From Nitrososphaeraceae archaeon (GTDB taxonomy: Archaea > Thermoproteota > Nitrososphaeria > Nitrososphaerales > Nitrososphaeraceae), in assembly GCA_035253945.1 (NCBI GenBank), contig DATFBG010000028.1, forward strand, positions 1 to 37,585: a stretch of DNA of 37,585 bases, read 5' to 3'. Under the pieces are notes generated by a model. It was not told the DNA's origin and did no database searches. It saw only the letters and a program-made list of their open reading frames with translations. The position numbers were made by a program, and so were the translations under genes. Shown one piece after another: positions 4,669 to 27,795 of this stretch; within the stretch, counting starts at the first letter, position 1; each line of letters opens with the position of its first letter.

Positions 4669-5682
4669 ATGCAGGCAAAGAAATGGCTTGATAATGACGT
4701 TTCAATGGATTCTGTCCTAAGCCATACAATAGCAGTAATAGGTTACGGTATTCAGGGTCGTGCTCAGGCAAGTAATATGAAAGATTCTGGACTCAATGTA
4801 ATAGTAGGATTAAGAAAGGGAGGAAGTAGTTGGGCCTTAGCGGAAAAAGATGGACACAAAGTTATGGAAATCGATAAGGCATCAAGACAGGCTGACATTA
4901 TTCATGTTCTCATTCCTGATATGGAACAATCGATAACCTACAGAAAATATATTTCCCCGCATTTGAGCAAAGAAAAAGCTCTGAGCTTTTCGCACGGAGC
5001 GGCTATTCACTGGAAGTGGATCGAGCCGCCGGAAGATATAGATGTTATAATGGTTGCTCCAAAGGGTCCAGGTCAAAGGGTTCGTGAACTTTATCAAAAT
5101 GGATTTGGCACACCCTCGTTAGTTGCTGTTCACCAGGACAGCTCTAAAGAGGCTTTGAAAAGGGTGCTAGCAATGGCGAAGGCTATAGGGAGTACACGCC
5201 CAGGCGTAATACAAACTACGTTTAAGGAGGAAGTTGAAACTGATTGGTTCGGCGAACAGGCAGATTTGTGTGGAGGCACACATGCCCTTGTGATGAATGC
5301 ATTTGAAACGTTAGTTGAGTCAGGGTACCAACCAGAAGTTGCGTATTTTGAATGCGTGCATGAATTAAAACTTATCGTGGATCTTATCCAAAAATATGGT
5401 CTAGCAGGAATGTATTCTCGGGTCAGTGAAACTGCCAGGTACGGCGGTCTAAGTCGGGGACCACGCATCATAGACAATTCTGTGAAGGAAAGGATGCAAA
5501 AAGTCCTAAAAGATATTCAGTCCGGCAGTTTTGCAGAGGAGTGGCTTAATGTGTATCAAAAGGATGGGAAGAATGCTTTTAACAAATACATGCATAGTAT
5601 CGAAAGTCACACAATAGAAAAGGTCGGCCAGGAAATGCGTGACATGATGTGGCCACCATCCTCGAAAGATAAAAATAATTAA
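4669..5682 (+). CDS. ilvC: Ketol-acid reductoisomerase
   Basis: GYGIQGRAQA, FSHG, MVAPKGPG, ETDWFGEQADLCGG, AYFECVHELK, SETARYG. Confidence 0.97.
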   Translation: MQAKKWLDNDVSMDSVLSHTIAVIGYGIQGRAQASNMKDSGLNVIVGLRKGGSSWALAEKDGHKVMEIDKASRQADIIHVLIPDMEQSITYRKYISPHLSKEKALSFSHGAAIHWKWIEPPEDIDVIMVAPKGPGQRVRELYQNGFGTPSLVAVHQDSSKEALKRVLAMAKAIGSTRPGVIQTTFKEEVETDWFGEQADLCGGTHALVMNAFETLVESGYQPEVAYFECVHELKLIVDLIQKYGLAGMYSRVSETARYGGLSRGPRIIDNSVKERMQKVLKDIQSGSFAEEWLNVYQKDGKNAFNKYMHSIESHTIEKVGQEMRDMMWPPSSKDKNN

Positions 5683-6116
5683 TTAGGCCTTGATTTGCGC
5701 ATATTTTTGTTAATGTGATCAATAATAGTAGATAATGGGGTCCCGGGGCCAAAATTGCCAGTTATTCCTTGCTCCTCCAAAATTCTTTTGTCTCGTTCGG
5801 GTATAATACCGCCACCTACTATCAATATGTCTTCGACCCCTCTTTCCTTTAGCAACTTGGCCACCTTTGGAAAAATCGTAAGATGGGCTCCATTCAATAA
5901 ACTCATGGCAACGACATCAACATCCTCATCTACCGCTATCTTTGCCACCTGCTCGGGTGTACAGAACAGACCAGAATAAATGACCTCAAATCCAGCGTCT
6001 CTAAGAGCTCTGCATATTACAAGTGCACCTCTATCGTGGCCATCCAGTCCCAGTTTAGACACCAGTACTCGTAAAGGGCTCTGGACGTTTTCTGCCTCTT
6101 CTTGCTGTGCAGACAT
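5679..6116 (-). CDS. Methylmalonyl-CoA mutase small (cobalamin-binding) subunit
   Basis: KLGLDGHDRGA (DxHxxG base-off/His-on motif), SLL, GGGIIP; adjacent to meaB and the large subunit. Confidence 0.95.
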   Translation of the reverse strand: MSAQQEEAENVQSPLRVLVSKLGLDGHDRGALVICRALRDAGFEVIYSGLFCTPEQVAKIAVDEDVDVVAMSLLNGAHLTIFPKVAKLLKERGVEDILIVGGGIIPERDKRILEEQGITGNFGPGTPLSTIIDHINKNMRKSRPN

Positions 6117-6261
6117 GAATGAATATCTCCTCCATTATCGGGGCTTAAAATGTTTATTATGATCTGCAATTGAGGTCGGTTTCTATTTGTCATTCTTTTT
6201 ATATGAGGCCTTTATTAACTGCACCTACTCATAATTTAATAAGCTCTAAAATAGGATTATA

Positions 6262-7215
6262 TTGAAGTTTAATTGCATGACATCTTCTCAAGCATCTAGT
6301 ATAGTAGAAGGCGTGCTGCAGGCTGACAGAAGATCTATTGCCAGAGCAATTTCTATTGTTGATAATAATGAAAGTGAAGCTCGAGCTATAATCCAAGCCA
6401 TTTTCGAGAAAACCGGAAAAGCAAGAACTATTGGGTTAACTGGCTCTGCTGGGGCTGGAAAGAGTACTTTAATGGGCAAATTAATTCCAGAGTTTCATTC
6501 CTTGGGATACTCTGTCGCCATCTTGGCGGTAGATCCAACAAGTCCAATAACGGGAGGTGCTATTTTGGGGGATAGAGTAAGGATGCAATCTGTTACGAGT
6601 GACGATAGAGTATTCATGAGGAGTATAGGATCCCGAGGCTCTTACGGTGGAGTTTCAAGATCTCTTAGAAATATGATTAGGATTCTGGACGCCGCGGGGT
6701 ATAAGCTTATACTAATTGAAAGTATAGGTGCAGGACAAGTCCAGACAGAGATCTCTAGGCTAGTAGATATAACGGCAGTAGTTTTTACACCCTATACTGG
6801 GGACCACATTCAAAACGTCAAGGCAGGATTAACGGAAGTAGGAGACCTTTGTATAGTTAATAAGGCCGATTTAGAAGGAGCGGGCGCACTGTACCAATCT
6901 CTGCTTGAATTTATTTCGGATAGCCGAAAAAAGCCTCGTATTCTCAAGGTATCAGCGAGAACCGGCAAAGGAATCAAGGAACTCGCAGTAAATATTGATC
7001 AAATGCTAAAGCAGATGAGTTCAACTCAAAAAGAGAGTGAGAAGAAAAAGTTGGAATTTGAATTGAGAGATATGATTTTAAGTACGATTGAAGAAAAGGT
7101 TTCTTCAATGTTGGATAAGAACAATAAGTATCACATTCTCATAGATAGACTCGCAAGCAAAAAGACAGACCCGTTTGAAGCCGCTGAAGAAATTATGCGT
7201 GCAATATCTTGGTGA
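6262..7215 (+). CDS. meaB: MeaB/ArgK GTPase chaperone of methylmalonyl-CoA mutase
   Basis: GSAGAGKST P-loop, LAVDPTSPITGGAILGDRVRM, NKAD, VSA. Alternative ATG start at 6277. Confidence 0.95.
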   Translation: MKFNCMTSSQASSIVEGVLQADRRSIARAISIVDNNESEARAIIQAIFEKTGKARTIGLTGSAGAGKSTLMGKLIPEFHSLGYSVAILAVDPTSPITGGAILGDRVRMQSVTSDDRVFMRSIGSRGSYGGVSRSLRNMIRILDAAGYKLILIESIGAGQVQTEISRLVDITAVVFTPYTGDHIQNVKAGLTEVGDLCIVNKADLEGAGALYQSLLEFISDSRKKPRILKVSARTGKGIKELAVNIDQMLKQMSSTQKESEKKKLEFELRDMILSTIEEKVSSMLDKNNKYHILIDRLASKKTDPFEAAEEIMRAISW

Positions 7216-7225
7216 GCCCTCCTCG

Positions 7226-8809
7226 ATGTCAATAAATTCTTTCAAGACCGACTCTGGTATTCCTGTCAAGCGAGTATACTCTAGGAAACTGATACCGAAG
7301 AATATAGATGATGAAGAACCGGGCAAATTCCCTTACACTCGCGGATTATATCCCAATATGTATAGAGAGAGGCTTTGGACCATGAGACAATACAGTGGAT
7401 TTGGAAGTGCTGAAGAAACCAACAAGAGATTCAAGTTTTTGCTTGAACAGGGTCAAACAGGTTTATCCCTTGCCTTTGACCTTCCCACGCAGACTGGACG
7501 GGATTCAGATAATCCTCAATCAGAAGGAGAAGTAGGAAGGACAGGGGTATCAATCAGTTCCATTGATGACATGTTAACATGTTTTAATGGCATTCCCCTT
7601 GACAAAGTCAGTACGTCTATGACAATTAATTCTACGGCGTCAACTCTACTAGCTCTATATGTCAGCGTCGCCGACGCGCAGGGTGTTTCTGCGTCCCGGC
7701 TCCGAGGCACAACTCAAAACGATATCCTAAAGGAGTATATCGCAAGAAATACTTACATATATCCTCCGAAGCCTTCGTTGCGACTAATTGGTGATATGAT
7801 CGAGTACTGCGCAAGAGAGGTTCCTCAGTGGTATCCCATAAGTATATCAGGATACCACATGCGAGAAGCCGGTTCCAATGCCATTCAGGAGCTCGCGTTT
7901 ACGTTTGCTAATGCAATAGAATACATCCAAACATGTGTAGACAGAGGGTTAAGGGTTGACGATTTTGCCCCGCGTCTTTCCTTTTTCTATTGTTGCACAA
8001 TGGAATTCTTCGAAGAGATTGCGAAGTTCAGAGCAGCCCGCAGAATATATGCGAATATAATGAAAGATAGATTTCACGCCAAAAATGCCAAATCCTGGCA
8101 TTTGCGGTTTCATGTGCAAACTAGCGGTGAATCACTGACTGCACAGCAGGTTGACAATAATGTTATCCGAGTTTCGTGTCAGGCTATGGCAGCTGCACTT
8201 GGAGGTTGTCAGTCTTTGCATACGAACTCAAGAGATGAGGCCCTAGCTCTACCGACTGAAGAATCAGTCAAGATAGCTCTTAGGACGCAGCAAGTAATAG
8301 CAGCCGAAACCGGGATTACAAAGACAGTTGACCCTCTCGGGGGCTCGTATTACGTAGAGTATCTTACGTCTAGAATACAAGAAGAAGTTCAGAAATACCT
8401 GAAGAAAATTGACAGAATGGGTGGTGCTCTTGTGGCAATTGAAAAGGGCTTCTTCCAAGAGGAGATCAGGAGGAATGCGTACAACTTGAAGAAAGAAATT
8501 GATGCTAAAAAGAGGATTATAGTTGGCGTCAACAAATTTCAGGATTCATCGAATGTTGAGCCTAAATTAGCCGCCATTGATATGGAGATAGAGTCTAGGC
8601 AGAAGAACAAGCTAAAATACTTTAAAGATTCTCGCGACAAATCCAAATTTGAATATGCTCTCAGTTCCCTAGAGAAAGCCGCCGAAAAACAAGATGAGAA
8701 TTTGATGCCATACATCATTAATGCCGTGAAGAATAAAGCAACACTAGGAGAGATTAGCGATTCATTAAGAACCATATTTGGGATTTTTGAACCAAAGATA
8801 GTCTTCTAG
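7226..8809 (+). CDS. Methylmalonyl-CoA mutase large (substrate-binding) subunit
   Basis: PGKFPYTRG, WTMRQYSGF, GLSLAFDLPT, GTTQNDILKEY, ISISGYHMREAG, QSLHTNSRDEA. ATG at 7226 preferred over TTG 7175, which overlaps meaB. Confidence 0.96.
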   Translation: MSINSFKTDSGIPVKRVYSRKLIPKNIDDEEPGKFPYTRGLYPNMYRERLWTMRQYSGFGSAEETNKRFKFLLEQGQTGLSLAFDLPTQTGRDSDNPQSEGEVGRTGVSISSIDDMLTCFNGIPLDKVSTSMTINSTASTLLALYVSVADAQGVSASRLRGTTQNDILKEYIARNTYIYPPKPSLRLIGDMIEYCAREVPQWYPISISGYHMREAGSNAIQELAFTFANAIEYIQTCVDRGLRVDDFAPRLSFFYCCTMEFFEEIAKFRAARRIYANIMKDRFHAKNAKSWHLRFHVQTSGESLTAQQVDNNVIRVSCQAMAAALGGCQSLHTNSRDEALALPTEESVKIALRTQQVIAAETGITKTVDPLGGSYYVEYLTSRIQEEVQKYLKKIDRMGGALVAIEKGFFQEEIRRNAYNLKKEIDAKKRIIVGVNKFQDSSNVEPKLAAIDMEIESRQKNKLKYFKDSRDKSKFEYALSSLEKAAEKQDENLMPYIINAVKNKATLGEISDSLRTIFGIFEPKIVF

Positions 8810-8966
8810 GAAGTCGAATCGCTATGTGACGTTAGATATGCTCCATCTCTGCGGCGCCTAGGTACGCTAAGCAGGCATTTTCATCTTTAATGCTCACTGT
8901 ACAGGTTAGAATAAGTTCAAACAAAAAATATTATATCGTTATATACATTAACGACTTGGACTAATT

Positions 8967-9398
8967 ATGCGGATAGACCATGTTGCAATTGCGGTTAATG
9001 ATCTTGATGAGGCTGTCAAGAATTATAGGAAAGTTTTGAATGCTAACAATATAGAAGTTGAAGTCGTTGGAAATGAGAAAGTGAGAGTTGCCATGATAAA
9101 TCTAGAAGATACTAGAATTGAACTAATGGAACCAACAGAGGATACTAGCACTATATCAAAGTATCTAAAGGAACATGGTGAAGGAATACATCACATTGCG
9201 ATAACCGCAGATGATATAGAAAATGACGTATCTAGGGCGTTAGGAAAGGGGATGAAGATTCTAGGGCAGTTAAGGCCAGGATCTTATGGAAGAAAAATTA
9301 CGTTCATACATCCAAAATCATTGAACGGCGTATTACTGGAATTATGTGAAGCACCCCAAAGTAAAGACTCAAAACCAAAATACGATTCCATTACTTAG
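8967..9398 (+). CDS. mce: Methylmalonyl-CoA epimerase
   Basis: IDHVAIAV, IELMEP, GEGIHHIA, FIHPKSLNGVLLELCE; next to the mutase genes. Confidence 0.94.
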   Translation: MRIDHVAIAVNDLDEAVKNYRKVLNANNIEVEVVGNEKVRVAMINLEDTRIELMEPTEDTSTISKYLKEHGEGIHHIAITADDIENDVSRALGKGMKILGQLRPGSYGRKITFIHPKSLNGVLLELCEAPQSKDSKPKYDSIT

Positions 9399-9443: not shown

Positions 9444-9572
9444 TTAAATTTTGATGATCGATCCACATTTGATACATTTAACCAAGATTGACTCTCCCAT
9501 CTGTTCAAGTTTTTCAAATTTCTTAGACCCGCAGTTAGGACAAATGGGACACCAACGTAAAGGTTTACTCAT
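9444..9572 (-). CDS. Putative 42-aa zinc-ribbon microprotein (not in ORF track)
   Basis: Manual translation MSKPLRWCPICPNCGSKKFEKLEQMGESILVKCIKCGSIIKI*, with CPNCG and CIKCG knuckles. Confidence 0.7.
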   Translation of the reverse strand: MSKPLRWCPICPNCGSKKFEKLEQMGESILVKCIKCGSIIKI

Positions 9573-9575
9573 GAT

Positions 9576-9855
9576 GCAGACAAGGGCGGCCAGACATTAG
9601 CATATTCTCGGCTAACTATGTACTCTAAGTCCTGAGCTTTATTGGTCTGCCTGCATAACCAACATTGGCTGTCTTGTTTTGCCACTTATTATTAGATGAT
9701 GTACCTTTCCGCAGACAAGGTCGGCCAGACATTAGCATATTCTCGGCTAACTATGTACTCTAAGTCCCGAGCTTTATTGGTCTGCCTGCATAACCAACAT
9801 TGGCTGTCTTGTTCTGCCACTTATTATTAGATGATGTACCTTTCCGCAGACAAGG
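9576..9855. repeat. Tandem 135-bp repeat (two copies) organised as DR-unit-DR-unit-DR with 10-bp DR GCAGACAAGG
   Basis: DR at 9576-9585, 9711-9720 and 9846-9855. Units 9586-9710 and 9721-9845 differ at three positions (9586/9721, 9633/9768, 9679/9814). Confidence 0.97.
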
Positions 9856-10401
9856 TAGTTTGCGGTACTCAAGATTTTCATGCTTTCCTATTTTTTTTAT
9901 GCGGTTAATACCATCTATGCTGCAGATGATATCGAAAACAGACTTGGAAACTAGATTACTCCATTTTTGGCCACGCAGGATTCTACGTCGAATGTAGGTA
10001 CCGTTGTAACACTTCTTCCTTACAAACCTGGGACTTCTTACTTCTAAATGAGAAGAGGCGAGGGAGACGACTAGTCGATTGCCAGAGTATATGATATCAA
10101 ATGGAGGTAACATAGAAATTAACATGGGAAACCACATTGCATTATTCTCTATATCAACAAGGGGTATGGTAATGATTTTTGAAACATCGACCCCTCCTTC
10201 AATTAGCGATTTACGTATCATTAGTATTCTTTCACCCGCGGTAAAAGGATTTGTAAAGGTATAGTTCAGTTGTGCGCTACCCACTACAATTAGTACTTCG
10301 TTGCACTCACTGAGGATTTGCCTTACTAGTAGCAAATGTCCATTATGAAATGGCTGGAATCTACCAATCACGACACCCCTGTGACTAGCCTTTTTTAACA
10401 T
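9760..10401 (-). CDS. nadM: Nicotinamide-nucleotide adenylyltransferase (archaeal NMNAT)
   Basis: GRFQPFHNGH, VGSAQ, NPFTAGERI, NGTYIR. The last 28 residues are encoded by the repeat element. Confidence 0.93.
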   Translation of the reverse strand: MLKKASHRGVVIGRFQPFHNGHLLLVRQILSECNEVLIVVGSAQLNYTFTNPFTAGERILMIRKSLIEGGVDVSKIITIPLVDIENNAMWFPMLISMLPPFDIIYSGNRLVVSLASSHLEVRSPRFVRKKCYNGTYIRRRILRGQKWSNLVSKSVFDIICSIDGINRIKKIGKHENLEYRKLPCLRKGTSSNNKWQNKTANVGYAGRPIKLGT

Positions 10402-22066: not shown

Positions 22067-23248
22067 CTAAAACAATTTATATCTTCTACCTACTATTTCA
22101 AGACTAGCCAGAGCAAAATCGAGTTGCTCTCTATCATGTATTGCAGTGAGAGATATTCGTAGTTGGGCTCTCCCTTTCCTCACAGTAGGAAACCGAATAG
22201 CTTGAATAAAAACCCCCTTTTTCAGCAAGAAGTTTGAGACGCTCACAGTTATCTTTTCATCTCCAATTAAGATTGGAATTATAGGACCACTATAATTGCC
22301 GGTCACCAAGCCAAGGTTCCGGAGGGCCTTTACAAAGTACTCGACATTTCTGCGAAGCTTTTTCTGTAATAAACCTGTTGAAGCCACTGATATTGAGGTT
22401 ACCGCAGCTCGGCATAGATGCGATGGGAGAGCTGAAGTGTAAACAAGCTGTCTCGATTTATTTATTAATAGTTCTCTAATATAATGTGACGCTGCTATGT
22501 AACCTCCAAAACAACCAATTGCTTTGCTTAGACTGCTTATATGAATATCTATGAATCTAGGAACTCCCAGCAGATCCGCAGTACCAGAATAATCTTTAGA
22601 GCGGCCCAAGATAAAGTCGCCATGGGCATCATCCAGGATAGTTATTGCATTTGCATCTTTTGCTAGCCGACAAATCTCAGAAAGGTTAGCGATATTGCCA
22701 TTCATGCTAAAGATTCCTTCGGTGATTACAAATTTTCTTACAGAATTCAAATTCTGATCTGTATCAATCAGCCTGTGTAGATCGCTAGCATTGTTGTGAC
22801 TAAAAATCTTAATGGTGGCTCCGCTAAGACGACATCCATCAACTATGCTACTATGATTGAACTCGTCGCTATATATAACTGAGTTCTTATCGGCCATTGC
22901 TGTTAATACACCTAAATTTGCCATGTATCCAGTTGAATAGACTAATGCACCTTCTGTCTTTCGATGATTTGCTAGTATATCTTCTAACATTTGTATGTCA
23001 GGCGAGTTGCCAGAGACTAGTCTAGAGCTGCACTGAGATATCTGATGGAGTTTGGTCTTGACAGTCCTTAACACTATAGGATTTTGTGATAAGCCTAGAT
23101 AGTCATTCGAACAGAAGTTTATTGCGCGATTTCCATCTATCTGAATTTGCATTTTCTCTATTGTAGCTATTATATTTAATCTCCTGTACAGACTTTTCCT
23201 TCTTATTGATTCAAGTTTTTTCTTTGCATAGCCTTCGAGACTTACCAA
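22067..23248 (-). CDS. bioF: 8-amino-7-oxononanoate synthase
   Basis: NFCSNDYLGL, TGYMANLG, DEFNHSSIVDG, DDAHG, SLSKAIG (PLP lysine), IRFPTV; within the bio cluster. Confidence 0.93.
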   Translation of the reverse strand: MVSLEGYAKKKLESIRRKSLYRRLNIIATIEKMQIQIDGNRAINFCSNDYLGLSQNPIVLRTVKTKLHQISQCSSRLVSGNSPDIQMLEDILANHRKTEGALVYSTGYMANLGVLTAMADKNSVIYSDEFNHSSIVDGCRLSGATIKIFSHNNASDLHRLIDTDQNLNSVRKFVITEGIFSMNGNIANLSEICRLAKDANAITILDDAHGDFILGRSKDYSGTADLLGVPRFIDIHISSLSKAIGCFGGYIAASHYIRELLINKSRQLVYTSALPSHLCRAAVTSISVASTGLLQKKLRRNVEYFVKALRNLGLVTGNYSGPIIPILIGDEKITVSVSNFLLKKGVFIQAIRFPTVRKGRAQLRISLTAIHDREQLDFALASLEIVGRRYKLF

Positions 23249-23546
23249 TTTGATTTCCTTTGCAATAGTATCTATAATTTACTTATATATTTCAGGCAGG
23301 AGATTATACATAACAAACTCTATACAGGGCCTTTACTATCTGGGAATTTTATACAAATCATATATTTGTAGAGGTGGCCGGTTCTCTGGTACAGCATGGT
23401 TAATTCCAATACTTAATAATATTTAGCTTTAACCAAACTCTGTTTATTGCTTTACATCTCGAAGTTTCATGAAACAGGGCCCAGTTTCAGTCTCTACGGC
23501 AAGGCCCATCTTCGCTGCACGGGTATAGTTAGGCTAGTACGATACT

Positions 23547-23573
23547 TATTTCTAAATTCGAGTTCTGAAAGAA
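23547..23573. promoter_or_regulatory. 27-bp quasi-palindromic repeat, copy 2 (candidate operator)
   Basis: Identical to 22019-22045; lies upstream of a TTATATAT box (about 23610-23617) and bioB. Confidence 0.6.
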
Positions 23574-23615
23574 ATCTGAGTCTTATTTTTTACGTAAGAA
23601 AGGCATCGATTATAT

Positions 23616-24632
23616 ATGTCAAGATTAATTCTCTTGAGCGTGTCGGATCATGTGGATAATGTGTCTTTCATTTATGATACTATGAAGAAGGTGGTTGATG
23701 GAGGCAACGTTGACTTTGAAGAAGCTGAGCGATTACTTGATACAAGACATATTCTAACGCTTGCTAAATGCGCTAACATAATTACCCGAGAGTTCACGGG
23801 GGAACTAGTTGATGTAGAAATGCTAATCAATGCAAAAGCAGGCAGGTGTCCGGAAGATTGTTCTTTCTGTGCTCAGTCTTCATTTTATGACTCGCAATCA
23901 GGTATAGATAAATATCCGTTATTGTCTAAGCAGAAAATCATCGAACAGGCACAAAAAGCCAAACAAGGTGGTGCAAATAGCTTCTGTCTTGTTTGCGCAT
24001 ATCGAACTCCTTTCGAAAAGGACTTTGAACAGATCTGTGATACCATAGTTGAATTAAAGAAAAAAGTAGCGATAGATGTTAATGTGTCCTTAGGCTTTAT
24101 GACGCGTGAAAGGGCAAGGCGATTAAAGTCTATAGGTATAAAGAGATATAACCATAACTTAGAAACTTCAGAGAGTTTCTTTGCACAAATTTGCAAAACA
24201 CACGATTTTAAGGACAGAGTTAATACGGCTAAAATCGTAAAGGAGGAGGGCCTAGAATTATGTTGTGGTGGTATAATAGGCATGGGAGAAACACTAAAAC
24301 AAAGACTTGAACTTGCTTTTGCTATTAAATCTCTCCGACCCGATGAAGTTCCAATAAATATTTTAATACCAAAGCCAGGGACTCCACTAGCAAATCTAGA
24401 GCCGCTGGAACCTACGGACGCTATAAAAACTATTGCGGTATGGAGGTTCATAATACCAAATACAATTCTAAAAATTGCGGGAGGAAGAGAACTTCATTTA
24501 AAAGACAAAGAGAGATTTGCTCTTAAAGCTGGAGCAAATGGGATAATTACAGGGGGTTACCTTACTACTCGAGGAAATAATATAGAGAAGGACATGACTA
24601 TGATAAAAGAGGTAGGCCTCAAGGTGGCATAA
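23616..24632 (+). CDS. bioB: Biotin synthase (radical SAM)
   Basis: CPEDCSFCAQS, YNHNLET, CCGGIIGMGE, VPINIL, AGGRE, GGYLTT. True start may be GTG 23640. Confidence 0.97.
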   Translation: MSRLILLSVSDHVDNVSFIYDTMKKVVDGGNVDFEEAERLLDTRHILTLAKCANIITREFTGELVDVEMLINAKAGRCPEDCSFCAQSSFYDSQSGIDKYPLLSKQKIIEQAQKAKQGGANSFCLVCAYRTPFEKDFEQICDTIVELKKKVAIDVNVSLGFMTRERARRLKSIGIKRYNHNLETSESFFAQICKTHDFKDRVNTAKIVKEEGLELCCGGIIGMGETLKQRLELAFAIKSLRPDEVPINILIPKPGTPLANLEPLEPTDAIKTIAVWRFIIPNTILKIAGGRELHLKDKERFALKAGANGIITGGYLTTRGNNIEKDMTMIKEVGLKVA

Positions 24633-24880
24633 GCCAAGGCATATTTGTAGAAATGATAGCGTCTAATGAAGACGCGTCTAAGATGCTCACGCTCTCTCGG
24701 GACTATTGCTTAGATCGTATGAGGTTCGCTATTAAACTGAATGGATATATTTTCATGGTTTGAAAGATACTTGCAGATTGTGCGAATAGACAACCGTTAC
24801 AGATCCACATTTCTATCGGCTTGAATCGTAGTATTAAGATTGAAAGAGCGACAGCGGCAGAAATTGGAAGTAGATAATAG

Positions 24881-25171
24881 ACAAGGCAAAAGGCTTTCGC
24901 AGGACTTGTAGTTGGAAGTGTTACAGATGCCATTGTAACCTATTACACAGGAAGCCGTGACGCCGGAATTGCGGCCACTGTCCTTTCAGCAACTCTTGCG
25001 GGTGCAGGAATGGGAGCGCTTGTAGGTACTGTCATACCAGGCACAGGTAAAGCCGCTGGCGCCCCGATCGGCGGCGCAGCGGATGCTTCCAACTTAATCT
25101 CGGTATGGCAAAATGGGGTGAAAAGACAGTGTCTGAAGGTGTTTAGATTCATTGTCAAGAAGCTTCAGTGA
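24881..25171 (+). pseudogene. Glycine-zipper / bacteriocin-like hydrophobic ORF remnant
   Basis: Open stretch after TAA-TAG at 24875-24880 reading ...AGLVVGSV...AGIAATVLSATLAGAGMGALVGTVIPGTGKAAGAPIGGAA...; no start codon until 25010. Confidence 0.5.
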
Positions 25172-25694
25172 ATATGCATTTTAATATCTGTATCTAGTGA
25201 AATTACTAATATATTGAGGTCTTCACAGCCCCAATTCAGAGTGCTTCTGGAGATGTTGTCGTACAGCTATCTATCAATAATTGTCAAAAAATAGCTTCCA
25301 AGGTAGGCATTTTGCATATCAGAAATTGCAATTATTAATAGTTAATAGTTGTTCCTGTTGATAATGATGTGTCAATACGTCAATGAATTGTCAGAGTAGG
25401 ATAATGCAACTCAAAAAATAGCAGAAGCGAGGTCCGGCATTAATACAATATTGATCTAAAGCAAAGCGAAAGACGAATTTCGTCATTTTTCATGTTTTCT
25501 AAATACGTCTAAAAAACGACCCATATTTAGTCTTCATTTATTGAAGACCCTTTTTTTACCTTTACAGCGTGATTATATACCAGGTGGAAGACTAAAAAGT
25601 AGTGCTAATTATGGACAATTTATCATGTTTGTGTGATAATACGGTTGTCAATCTATGTTTATGATTGAAATATAACAAAAAAGGAGACTCTTAT

Positions 25695-27059
25695 CTATAC
25701 CATATCTTCAATTTTTTTGGTTAATTCACATATTACGTCTAATAAAAATTTAAAGTCACCTTTACCTATCGCAAGGGGAGGAATTACTAAAAGCGTACTG
25801 CCCAAACCTCTGATAAACACCCCCATTTTTAGGGCCTCTTGTGCTATGTAGTAGTTGGTGCGAACTTTTCTTCCGTGATCATCGAGCAATTCTAATGGTT
25901 TTTTCTCTTTCTTACTAACTAAATCTATCGCACCTAGAAGACCCTTATGTACTACTTCCCCTACGACGGAGCAACCTTGAATTCCCTTAAGCCTTTTTCT
26001 GAGATAAGTGCTGTTTGATCGTATACTCCTCAATAAATTTTCTGTCCGGTAAAGTCTGATATTCGCCATCGCAACAGAACATCCTATTGGGTGTCCAGTG
26101 TATGTATGTCCATGACAGAAGTGCTTATTTTCTGAGTAATCCGAAAGGAAATTAGAGTAGATCTCGTTACTGCAAAGGGTAACTGCCAGTGGAGAATAAC
26201 CGCCCGTAAGAGCCTTTCCGAAGCAAACAATATCCGGATTACATCTCTGCGCCAAATATTCAACCATATTTCCCAACCTACCAAATCCAGTCGCTATTTC
26301 ATCAACTATTAGTAATATGCTGTACTTGTCACAGAGTTCAGAGATATTTTTCTGAAACCCACGGGGATATACATTTACACCACCGGCTATTTGGGCTCCA
26401 CTTTCCATAACCATGGCACAGCAAGTGGCACTATACCTCGAAAAAATCTTATCCAGCTTGTCAAGATACTCGTGGTCATCATTCCCATCACTGTTGAGTA
26501 GAGTAGCAGACTTAGGAGGAGGGATCTTTTTTGACAATCTCAAAATGGATTTGTAGTGTCTAAAGTAACTCGAAACGTATCCGACTGACATGGCACCTAT
26601 TGTGTCACCATGATATGCATTTTCCAAGGAAAGAAAACGGTTTTTTCTAGTATTGCCCCTGTTTCTCCAGTACTGAACAGCCATTTTCAGGGCTATTTCA
26701 ACAGCTGTCGACCCGTTATCCGAGTAAAATACATGATCCATCTGTTTTGCCAGTTTAAGCAAGGTTTCTGCCAATTCTGTTGCAGGCTGGTTGGCCAGAC
26801 CAAACAGAGTTGAGTGCTGCAGCCGTCTCGCTTGTTTTATTATAGAATCTATAATTTCTTTTCTATTATGACCCCAAACATTGCACCACATACTTGCAGA
26901 TCCATCAAGATATCTGTTACCCTTGTTGTCTATGAGATAAAATCCGTCGCCTCGCACGATCATTTTATTGTCCTGCTGCATCCAGTCCTTCATCTGGGTG
27001 TAAGGGTGCCACACAAATTGTCTATCTGCTTGCTCTAAATCCAATCCAAATAAATTCAA
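25695..27059 (-). CDS. bioA: 7,8-diaminononanoate (DAPA) aminotransferase
   Basis: VWHPYTQM, SDNGSTAVEIALKMA, YHGDT, DEIATGFGR, GKALTGG, HGHTYTG. Alternative TTG start at 27044. Confidence 0.96.
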   Translation of the reverse strand: MNLFGLDLEQADRQFVWHPYTQMKDWMQQDNKMIVRGDGFYLIDNKGNRYLDGSASMWCNVWGHNRKEIIDSIIKQARRLQHSTLFGLANQPATELAETLLKLAKQMDHVFYSDNGSTAVEIALKMAVQYWRNRGNTRKNRFLSLENAYHGDTIGAMSVGYVSSYFRHYKSILRLSKKIPPPKSATLLNSDGNDDHEYLDKLDKIFSRYSATCCAMVMESGAQIAGGVNVYPRGFQKNISELCDKYSILLIVDEIATGFGRLGNMVEYLAQRCNPDIVCFGKALTGGYSPLAVTLCSNEIYSNFLSDYSENKHFCHGHTYTGHPIGCSVAMANIRLYRTENLLRSIRSNSTYLRKRLKGIQGCSVVGEVVHKGLLGAIDLVSKKEKKPLELLDDHGRKVRTNYYIAQEALKMGVFIRGLGSTLLVIPPLAIGKGDFKFLLDVICELTKKIEDMV

Positions 27060-27084
27060 CTAATGTCAAATAATAAATATCATT

Positions 27085-27795
27085 TTGAAAGATAAAGGAT
27101 TCTTTATAACCGGAACAGATACATGGGTGGGGAAGACGACAGTAGCTGCAGCAATCGCACTGATCATGAAGAGACAGGGATTGGATGTTGGTATAATGAA
27201 GCCATTTGCTACCGTAGGTGAGAAATATAACTCGAAACATAAGTCCAGAGATGTGGAAGTGCTTGCCGCCGCTGCGAACGTTAGGGATACGTACTATAAT
27301 CTGAATCCTTTTTTCTCCTCCTTGCCCACAGCACCTTATACTGCTAGTCTCGTAAGAAAATCCAATAAAGTGAAGGTTTCCAAGGCCGTGGAACTATATT
27401 CTAAACTAGCGTCAGCACATGACCGAATGATAGTGGAGGGACTAGGTGGAATACTGGTACCTCTGACGAGGAGGAAGAGTCTCGCAGATTTTGTAAATGC
27501 GATAAATCTCCCGGTCATCATCGTGGCGCGCTTCCGGTTGGGTATGATAAATCACATTCTGCTCACTTTGAAGGCTTGCCTTGATTATAGTCTAAGAGTT
27601 AGAGGGATCGTGCTCAATGACTTGTCTTCTTGGAATGGCCCAGTCAAGAAGGAATTGATAATGGAAACAATTGAAAAGGTTTCTGGAGTGAATGTTTTGG
27701 GATTAATACCTTTTATAACGAATCCGACCCCGCAAAGAGTAGCGAAAATTCTCGAAGGTTGTCTAAGTTATAAGGGAAGCTCGCTCATATACTAA
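27085..27795 (+). CDS. bioD: Dethiobiotin synthase
   Basis: FITGTDTWVGKT, MKP, VEGLGGILVP, LGMINH. Confidence 0.96.
   Translation: MKDKGFFITGTDTWVGKTTVAAAIALIMKRQGLDVGIMKPFATVGEKYNSKHKSRDVEVLAAAANVRDTYYNLNPFFSSLPTAPYTASLVRKSNKVKVSKAVELYSKLASAHDRMIVEGLGGILVPLTRRKSLADFVNAINLPVIIVARFRLGMINHILLTLKACLDYSLRVRGIVLNDLSSWNGPVKKELIMETIEKVSGVNVLGLIPFITNPTPQRVAKILEGCLSYKGSSLIY

What the first reader, a model, noticed from the sequence alone, without database searches (positions are those of the whole stretch)
9565..9860. 125-bp element inserted twice in tandem into the nadM 3' end with 10-bp direct repeats; the empty site can be reconstructed
Seen: the architecture is DR-unit-DR-unit-DR (DR GCAGACAAGG at 9576, 9711 and 9846; period 135 bp; three differences between units). 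Deleting both units and two DRs gives, on the coding strand, ...CTA CCT TGT CTG CAT CAT GAG TAA. nadM would then end ...EYRKLPCLHHE* (188 aa), with its stop overlapping the ATG of the zinc-ribbon ORF at 9572 (ATGAGTAA), a typical coupled-operon junction. With the insert, NadM has a 28-aa foreign tail and is uncoupled from the microprotein. Inference: this is a small non-autonomous mobile element with a target-site duplication or att-like core, later duplicated or integrated twice. No transposase or integrase is present in the window.
Basis: partly seen in the sequence, partly recalled or inferred. Interest (0 to 1): 0.8.

Follow-up and report, generated by a model that had tools for sequence, protein, structure and literature searches.

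The report
Slippage-prone gene spacer, not mobile element
A 135-base stretch between two neighbouring genes of a soil archaeon occurs as zero, one or two copies in different strains, likely because short repeats at its ends let DNA copying or repair slip; it is likely ordinary variation in old native DNA rather than a jumping element.

Summary
The repeat is real: period 135 bp at 9576-9856, a 10-bp direct repeat (DR) three times, three differences. The mobile-element reading mostly fails. One copy is the normal state. It sits at the same site in a sister species and three more distant relatives, and diverges in step with the flanking genes (94 to 77% against 97 to 84%). Of 19 genus-level loci, 17 have the one-copy spacing, and none is empty or doubled. 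No dispersed copy, terminal inverted repeat, hairpin or tested transposase was found. A zero-copy allele does exist, in 2 of 8 runs (one study). It carries the species' derived DR letter, so it is likely a later deletion, not the pre-insertion site. The two-copy form was seen only in this assembly. The 28-residue NadM tail is also present with one copy, and the 'coupled' stop comes from the next gene's own start codons (19 of 19). Best reading: DR-mediated deletion and duplication of native DNA, a process known in archaea. Left open: both DRs changed together in this species, and an ancient insertion is not excluded.

The parts
9576..9585 (.). 10-bp direct repeat, zinc-ribbon side (microhomology, 3 nt from the ATG at 9572)
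   Evidence: a similar motif lies at the same place in 4 close relatives
9586..9710 (.). 125-bp interior, copy 1; same letters as the single copy in run X1
   Evidence: table 8 (record 2: one difference, at 9554, outside the unit); 93.7% to G002
9711..9720 (.). middle direct repeat, the duplication junction; the next base (T) equals the base after the third repeat
   Evidence: no run of 8 showed this junction
9721..9845 (.). 125-bp interior, copy 2; encodes the last 28 residues and the stop of NadM
9846..9855 (.). 10-bp direct repeat, nadM side, inside the nadM reading frame
9760..10401 (-). nadM, archaeal NMN adenylyltransferase, 213 aa; the family model ends at about residue 176
   Evidence: TIGR01527 over cut-off, PRK01153 4e-61
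9444..9572 (-). 42-aa putative zinc-ribbon microprotein, conserved after nadM in the genus and in many family members
   Evidence: only sub-threshold family hits

Best explanation
The 135-bp unit is inherited native DNA (the tail of nadM plus the spacer before the zinc-ribbon gene) that occurs as zero, one or two copies, likely because 10-11-bp direct repeats at its ends let replication or repair slip between them and delete or duplicate it. Shown: the three copy numbers, one copy as the common state, and divergence in step with the flanks. Inferred: the empty allele is a later deletion, the two-copy form is a later duplication, and the mechanism is microhomology-guided misalignment (slipped strand, template switch or end joining) with no dedicated recombinase. 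Predicted effect: small. The duplication leaves NadM at 213 aa and widens the stop-to-ATG gap from 52 to 187 nt. The deletion would shorten a poorly constrained tail lying beyond the family model.
For: (1) One copy at the orthologous site in G002 and in L061, L062, L063. Unit identity is 93.7/89.6/88.8/76.8%, against nadM core 96.6/91.9/91.1/85.2% and zinc-ribbon gene 95.3/90.7/90.7/83.7%. (2) The distance from the NadM G-x-x-R anchor to the zinc-ribbon ATG is 189-206 nt in 17 of 19 genus-level loci (others 131 and 163). One copy gives 205, empty 70, G000 340. (3) A profile of the unit interior scores above shuffles on the positionally equivalent spacer in 7 of 15 more distant loci: z 6.4-12.4 in six, 3.3 in one, from two lineages with 60-71% NadM C-terminal identity. 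(4) A single contig bridges one copy in 6 of 8 runs. (5) No dispersed copy: G000, 60 relatives by BLAST, 40 by profile, viral contigs 0 matches; no loose ends at the unit borders in 8 runs. (6) Polarity: all 4 relatives have T at 9581 and 9851 where the window has C. The empty allele's single right-side difference lies at 9857 (inferred from contig ends), so it carries the derived C. (7) Tail pN/pS is 0.29-1.51 in the 9 pairs with changes, against core 0.14-0.30 in 9 of 10 pairs; counts are small. (8) Run X12 lacks 4 more nt in the unit, and two genus members have shorter spacers. (9) Precedent: repeat-mediated deletions in Haloquadratum, 16 cases with 10-19-bp repeats, 10 of 11 polarisable cases deletions (PMC3119063, passages).
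Against: (1) The DR is old: the two ends match at 8-10 of 11 letters in all 4 close relatives, as a target-site duplication would. (2) Both DRs carry the same derived letter in this species, which independent mutation explains poorly. It needs conversion between the repeats or re-insertion; neither was tested. (3) Six family-level loci outside the genus have a short junction of 50-67 nt, so the genus likely gained about 135 nt at some time. (4) No homology was detected in 8 of 15 distant genus loci. (5) The unit diverges less than nadM synonymous sites (23% against 36% for G000-L063), so some constraint is possible. (6) The two-copy junction was seen in 0 of 8 runs. (7) G000 is 73% complete with N50 7 kb, and repeats are often lost from such assemblies, so dispersed copies could be hidden. 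(8) The empty allele's letters were not seen, only inferred.
Confidence: 0.75

Rival explanations
1. Fossil insertion: a foreign segment inserted once, with a 10-11-bp target-site duplication, in the ancestor of this subclade or genus. It has been inherited passively since, and the old duplication now seeds the deletions and duplications. This adds an origin to the best explanation and does not exclude it.
For: DR-like ends in 4 of 4 close relatives. Short nadM junctions of 50-67 nt in six loci outside the genus, against about 195 nt inside it. PMC3119063 (passage) notes that target duplications are a prominent source of such repeats.
Against: The ends are no more alike than chance in 15 of 15 more distant genus loci, including the 7 whose interior is homologous. 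No terminal inverted repeat in any of 5 units tested. By eye, the empty form does not restore the outgroup C-terminus.
Confidence: 0.2
2. The two-copy form is a library or assembly chimera of two co-occurring one-copy strains, so only zero and one copy exist in cells. The unit would still be native.
For: Junction seen in 0 of 8 runs and 0 of 4 close relatives. Copy 1 equals the single unit of X1. The copy-2 letter at position 58 occurs in the single unit of X3. G000 is a fragmented assembly.
Against: A 10-bp repeat is shorter than assembly words, so a tandem needs molecules that span the junction (inference). The position-104 letter of copy 2 was seen in no run. None of the 8 runs appears to be the source strain: all differ from the window at 9554, so their lack of the junction says little.
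Confidence: 0.2
3. One reading: an active small non-autonomous element (MITE-like or att-core integrating) moved in trans, which excises and re-inserts at this site.
For: An empty allele exists. The shared derived letter in both DRs is what a fresh target-site duplication would give. A tyrosine-recombinase fragment is present in G000 and G002 (identity not checked, and all 14 control genomes also have one).
Against: Single site only. Divergence follows the flanks. No TIR. No unusual fold (z 1.07 to -0.85) and 1 of 35 pairs covarying. Dyad symmetry at the three DRs is 5, 7 and 8 of 11, and 29 of 500 random sites reach 8. PF01609, PF01797, PF07282 and PF01867 were not found in G000 or G002 (both incomplete). 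A circle integrating by crossover would not put the new letter into both repeats (reasoning).
Confidence: 0.05

Closest known systems
Repeat-mediated deletions in Haloquadratum walsbyi and Halobacterium (PMC3119063; passages seen)
   Same: A short direct repeat (10-19 bp in 16 cases) at both ends of a segment in one strain and one copy at the empty site in another; mostly deletions where polarity could be told; archaeal natural populations.
   Different: Here the reciprocal duplication also appears, the host is a Nitrososphaeraceae lineage, and both repeats share a derived letter.
Microhomology-junction duplication with reciprocal deletion by template switching in E. coli (PMC1428787; passages seen)
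   Same: A duplication on one product and a deletion on the other, joined at a short direct repeat.
   Different: That system is stress-induced and far longer in range. The passages set it apart from distance-dependent single-fork events, which fit a 135-bp unit better. No protein requirement was tested here.
Prokaryotic MITEs, e.g. Sulfolobus SM1-SM4 (review PMC10969869; passages seen)
   Same: Short, non-coding in the main, flanked by a direct repeat.
   Different: No terminal inverted repeats, a single site, vertical inheritance, and no partner transposase found among the families tested.

Membership tests
MITE / non-autonomous IS derivative | terminal inverted repeats | tested here: not met
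   best 5-7 of 10 and 9-11 of 25 letters, with shifts allowed, in 5 units
MITE / non-autonomous IS derivative | multiple dispersed copies | tested here: not met
   none in G000 or 60 relatives; profile on 41 genomes gave only the known site plus 2 weak partial hits at E 0.018 and 0.024, about the chance number and not inspected; genomes incomplete
MITE / non-autonomous IS derivative | flanking direct repeat with one copy at an empty site | tested here: met
   a deletion between repeats gives the same picture
MITE / non-autonomous IS derivative | empty site is the ancestral state | tested here: not met
   0 of 19 genus loci empty; the empty allele has the derived DR letter (inferred)
MITE / non-autonomous IS derivative | partner transposase in the genome | tested here: inconclusive
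   PF01609, PF01797, PF07282 not found in G000 (73% complete) or G002 (90%); other families not searched
IS200/IS605-derived PATE | subterminal hairpins and no target duplication (definition recalled) | tested here: not met
   folding no better than shuffles; a DR is present
att-core integrating element (tyrosine recombinase) | inverted binding arms around the core | tested here: not met
   5, 7, 8 of 11 at the three repeats; 29 of 500 random sites reach 8 or more
att-core integrating element (tyrosine recombinase) | excised circles | not testable with these tools
   only assembled contigs were available; 0 of 8 runs showed the end-to-start junction
Casposon | Cas1-like casposase and terminal inverted repeats (definition recalled) | tested here: not met
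   PF01867 not found in G000 or G002; no TIR
Structured non-coding RNA | known family or covarying structure | tested here: not met
   Rfam best E 1.2, outside the unit; 1 of 35 pairs with a two-sided change in 6 close sequences, so power is low
Repeat-mediated (microhomology) deletion/duplication | native segment between short direct repeats | tested here: met
Repeat-mediated (microhomology) deletion/duplication | products joined within the repeat, with fewer or more copies | tested here: met
   skip of 270 with 10 letters fitting either side, in X1 and X2; two copies in the window
Repeat-mediated (microhomology) deletion/duplication | independent of a dedicated recombinase | not testable with these tools
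   needs genetics in a cultured host

The most novel reading that the evidence does not exclude
The unit is a TIR-less, site-specific passenger that has stayed at one site across a Nitrososphaeraceae subclade and is occasionally removed and re-inserted with a fresh 10-11-bp target duplication. That would explain why both repeats changed together in this species, and it would act as a 0/1/2-copy switch that couples or uncouples nadM and the zinc-ribbon gene.
Probability: 0.06. Interest if true: 0.6.

Novelty: new member of a known kind. Interest (0 to 1): 0.15.

Why it matters
Mainly as a caution and a small natural example. A repeat-unit-repeat-unit-repeat layout with a reconstructable empty site, even a real one, is also the signature of deletion and duplication between short repeats, so relatives are needed to give the direction. 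The locus shows both reciprocal products in wild populations of a soil archaeon, and a hint that the two repeats evolve together. No new element or function is indicated.

Tried and rejected
A metagenome scan with a 23-nt nadM-side pattern found 0 stretches, and the tool may omit near-identical records. A viral-contig scan with a 32-nt interior pattern found 0. Rfam gave nothing in the unit. Folding of both strands of both copies was not significant. A pairwise alignment test was weak: apart from G002, 2 of 11 spacers reached z 3 or more, so a profile was used. The profile search of whole genomes missed the orthologous spacers of G005, G006 and G008, so it has limited reach for old copies. In runs X4 and X8 no contig bridges the locus; their lack of cover at the junction is no evidence. 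The letters of the empty allele could not be read. The 'coupled junction' argument was rejected because the stop is intrinsic to the next gene's start. A short ORF ending at that stop was set aside for the same reason. A CRISPR-like array was rejected from the sequence (10-bp repeat, near-identical spacers). Paper searches listed nothing on this locus; no supplements were read. Earlier findings of the scan: nothing to show.

Full report
Observation. The window holds two 135-bp periods (9576-9710, 9711-9845) and a third copy of the first 10 bases at 9846, with three differences between periods. They overlap the 3' end of nadM (9760-10401, minus strand; TIGR01527 over cut-off) and end 3 nt before the ATG of a 42-aa putative zinc-ribbon gene (9444-9572). 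The relatives' records name Nitrososphaeraceae. The window's ORFs of 110 aa or more look like housekeeping genes by eye. A 10-bp direct repeat at this spacing is not rare: 332 in G000, 0.40 per kb.

One copy is the inherited state. BLAST of the unit against 61 genomes gave one full-length match outside G000: a single copy at the same site in the sister species G002 (94%, E 1e-55). All other hits were 44 nt or shorter, with E 0.018 or worse. A metagenome scan added three more distant loci, L061-L063, each with one copy. Unit identity to G000 falls with the flanks: 93.7, 89.6, 88.8, 76.8% against nadM core 96.6, 91.9, 91.1, 85.2%. The distance from a conserved NadM anchor to the zinc-ribbon ATG is 189-206 nt in 17 of 19 genus-level loci (131 and 163 in the other two); one copy gives 205, none 70, two 340. 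These 19 loci are kin, and some may be the same species. Two of them (L090, L095) correspond to G009 and G003, which are flagged unpublished; without them the count is 16 of 17. A profile of the interior scored above shuffles on the equivalent spacer in 7 of 15 distant loci from two lineages (z 6.4-12.4 in six, 3.3 in one) and not in the other 8. The 28-residue tail is therefore not new: NadM is 213 aa in G002 too, with related tails in L061-L063. Tail pN/pS (0.29-1.51) is mostly above the core's (0.14-0.30 in 9 of 10 pairs), on few changes.

Alleles in nature. I laid 8 of 24 listed runs, all as contigs. One contig bridges a single copy in six (X1, X2, X3, X9, X10, and X12 with 4 more nt missing); X4 and X8 give pieces only. 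X1 and X2, two samples of one study, also hold a 75-nt contig that skips 270 nt at the repeat (depth 3 against 9.3, and 4.9 against 8.1). No run showed the two-copy junction or a loose end at the unit's borders. All eight differ from the window at 9554, so none appears to be the source strain.

Direction. All four close relatives have T at 9581 and 9851, where the window has C and no run lists a difference. From the contig ends, the empty allele's two private differences lie at 9573 and 9857, outside the repeat; this is an inference, as the letters were not shown. The empty allele then carries the derived repeat letter inside near-identical flanks, while the unit is older than the species. It is best read as a deletion. 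The 'coupled operon' argument does not help, because a stop in that frame is made by the zinc-ribbon gene's own first codons in 19 of 19 genus loci.

Tests for a mobile element. No terminal inverted repeat, no unusual fold, 1 of 35 pairs covarying, no Rfam match in the unit, no att-like dyad above background. No dispersed copy in G000, by profile in 41 genomes (two weak partial hits, about the chance number, not inspected), or in viral contigs. PF01609, PF01867, PF01797 and PF07282 were not found in G000 or G002. A tyrosine-recombinase match exists in both, as in all 14 control genomes. Both genomes are incomplete.

Mechanism. Shown: copy numbers 0, 1 and 2 joined at the repeat, and vertical inheritance of one copy. 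Inferred: misalignment between the end repeats during replication or repair deletes or duplicates the segment. The base after the middle repeat equals the base after the third repeat and occurs in no relative or run, which fits a strand that copied one base past the repeat before slipping back (inference). The duplication widens the stop-to-ATG gap from 52 to 187 nt and leaves NadM at 213 aa. This matches repeat-mediated deletion in Haloquadratum (PMC3119063, passages: 16 cases with 10-19-bp repeats; 10 of 11 polarisable cases were deletions) and reciprocal duplication/deletion at microhomologies in E. coli (PMC1428787, passages). MITEs tend to be multicopy, and TIRs are part of the basic structure of a transposable element (PMC10969869, passages).

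Against this reading. The ends match at 8-10 of 11 letters in all four close relatives, though at chance level in the 15 distant loci. Six loci outside the genus have short 50-67-nt junctions; other outside loci have 87-142 nt or no detected zinc-ribbon gene. An ancient insertion with a target duplication therefore remains possible (0.2). Both repeats carry the same derived letter in this species; conversion through the empty or doubled alleles could do this, but so could re-insertion, and neither was tested. The unit diverges less than synonymous sites. The two-copy form rests on one fragmented assembly, and one of its differences occurs in a one-copy strain (X3), so a chimera is possible (0.2). 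These rivals are not exclusive of the best explanation.

Verdict. A real repeat and a real 0/1/2-copy polymorphism of native sequence; likely not a mobile element. Four paper searches listed nothing on this locus, and earlier findings of the scan showed nothing. New example of a known process; interest 0.15.

Noticed in passing
window 9956-10100, run X2 record 7: A minor contig (depth 3.8) with 16 differences in 145 nt joins window-type nadM sequence; 10 of 12 listed letters match L063 and 8 of 12 match L061/L062. It may be recombination from a related lineage into nadM. Its share is like that of the empty allele in the same run; phase is unknown.
   Followed up: partly
window 9573 and 9857 (runs X1, X2): The empty allele has two private differences 2-3 nt outside the repeat, inferred from contig ends; unexplained, possibly error-prone repair at the junction.
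   Followed up: partly
window 9581, 9716, 9851: The same substitution stands in all repeat copies of this species against 4 of 4 relatives; it suggests concerted evolution of a 10-bp repeat pair.
   Followed up: partly
window 9585 and 9845: Strains differ at the repeat edges: X4, X8, X9, X10 and X12 have a repeat shifted by one base, and the main X2 strain has an 11-bp repeat.
   Followed up: yes
window 9444-9572; L002-L026, L061-L096: The 42-aa CxxCxxC...CxxC microprotein follows nadM across the genus and in many other family and order members, with no family hit over cut-off.
   Followed up: partly
L004:1987-2118 and L008:499-662: Two genus members have shorter spacers (131 and 163 nt); in L004 NadM runs to 5 nt before the next gene. 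L008 is from G003, flagged unpublished.
   Followed up: partly
window 5679-9398: Methylmalonyl-CoA mutase subunits, a MeaB-like GTPase and the epimerase (epimerase by TIGR03081; the others by eye).
   Followed up: no
window 22067-27795: Apparent biotin synthesis genes (bioF, bioB, bioA, bioD-like) named by eye from the ORF list.
   Followed up: no
G000:C19:1109-1627: A second NadM-like paralogue (36% identical), with a counterpart in most family members searched.
   Followed up: no
L106 (G024:C76:2354-2431) and L107 (G005:C35:801-882): Weak partial hits of the unit profile (E 0.018 and 0.024), about the number expected by chance in 41 genomes.
   Followed up: no
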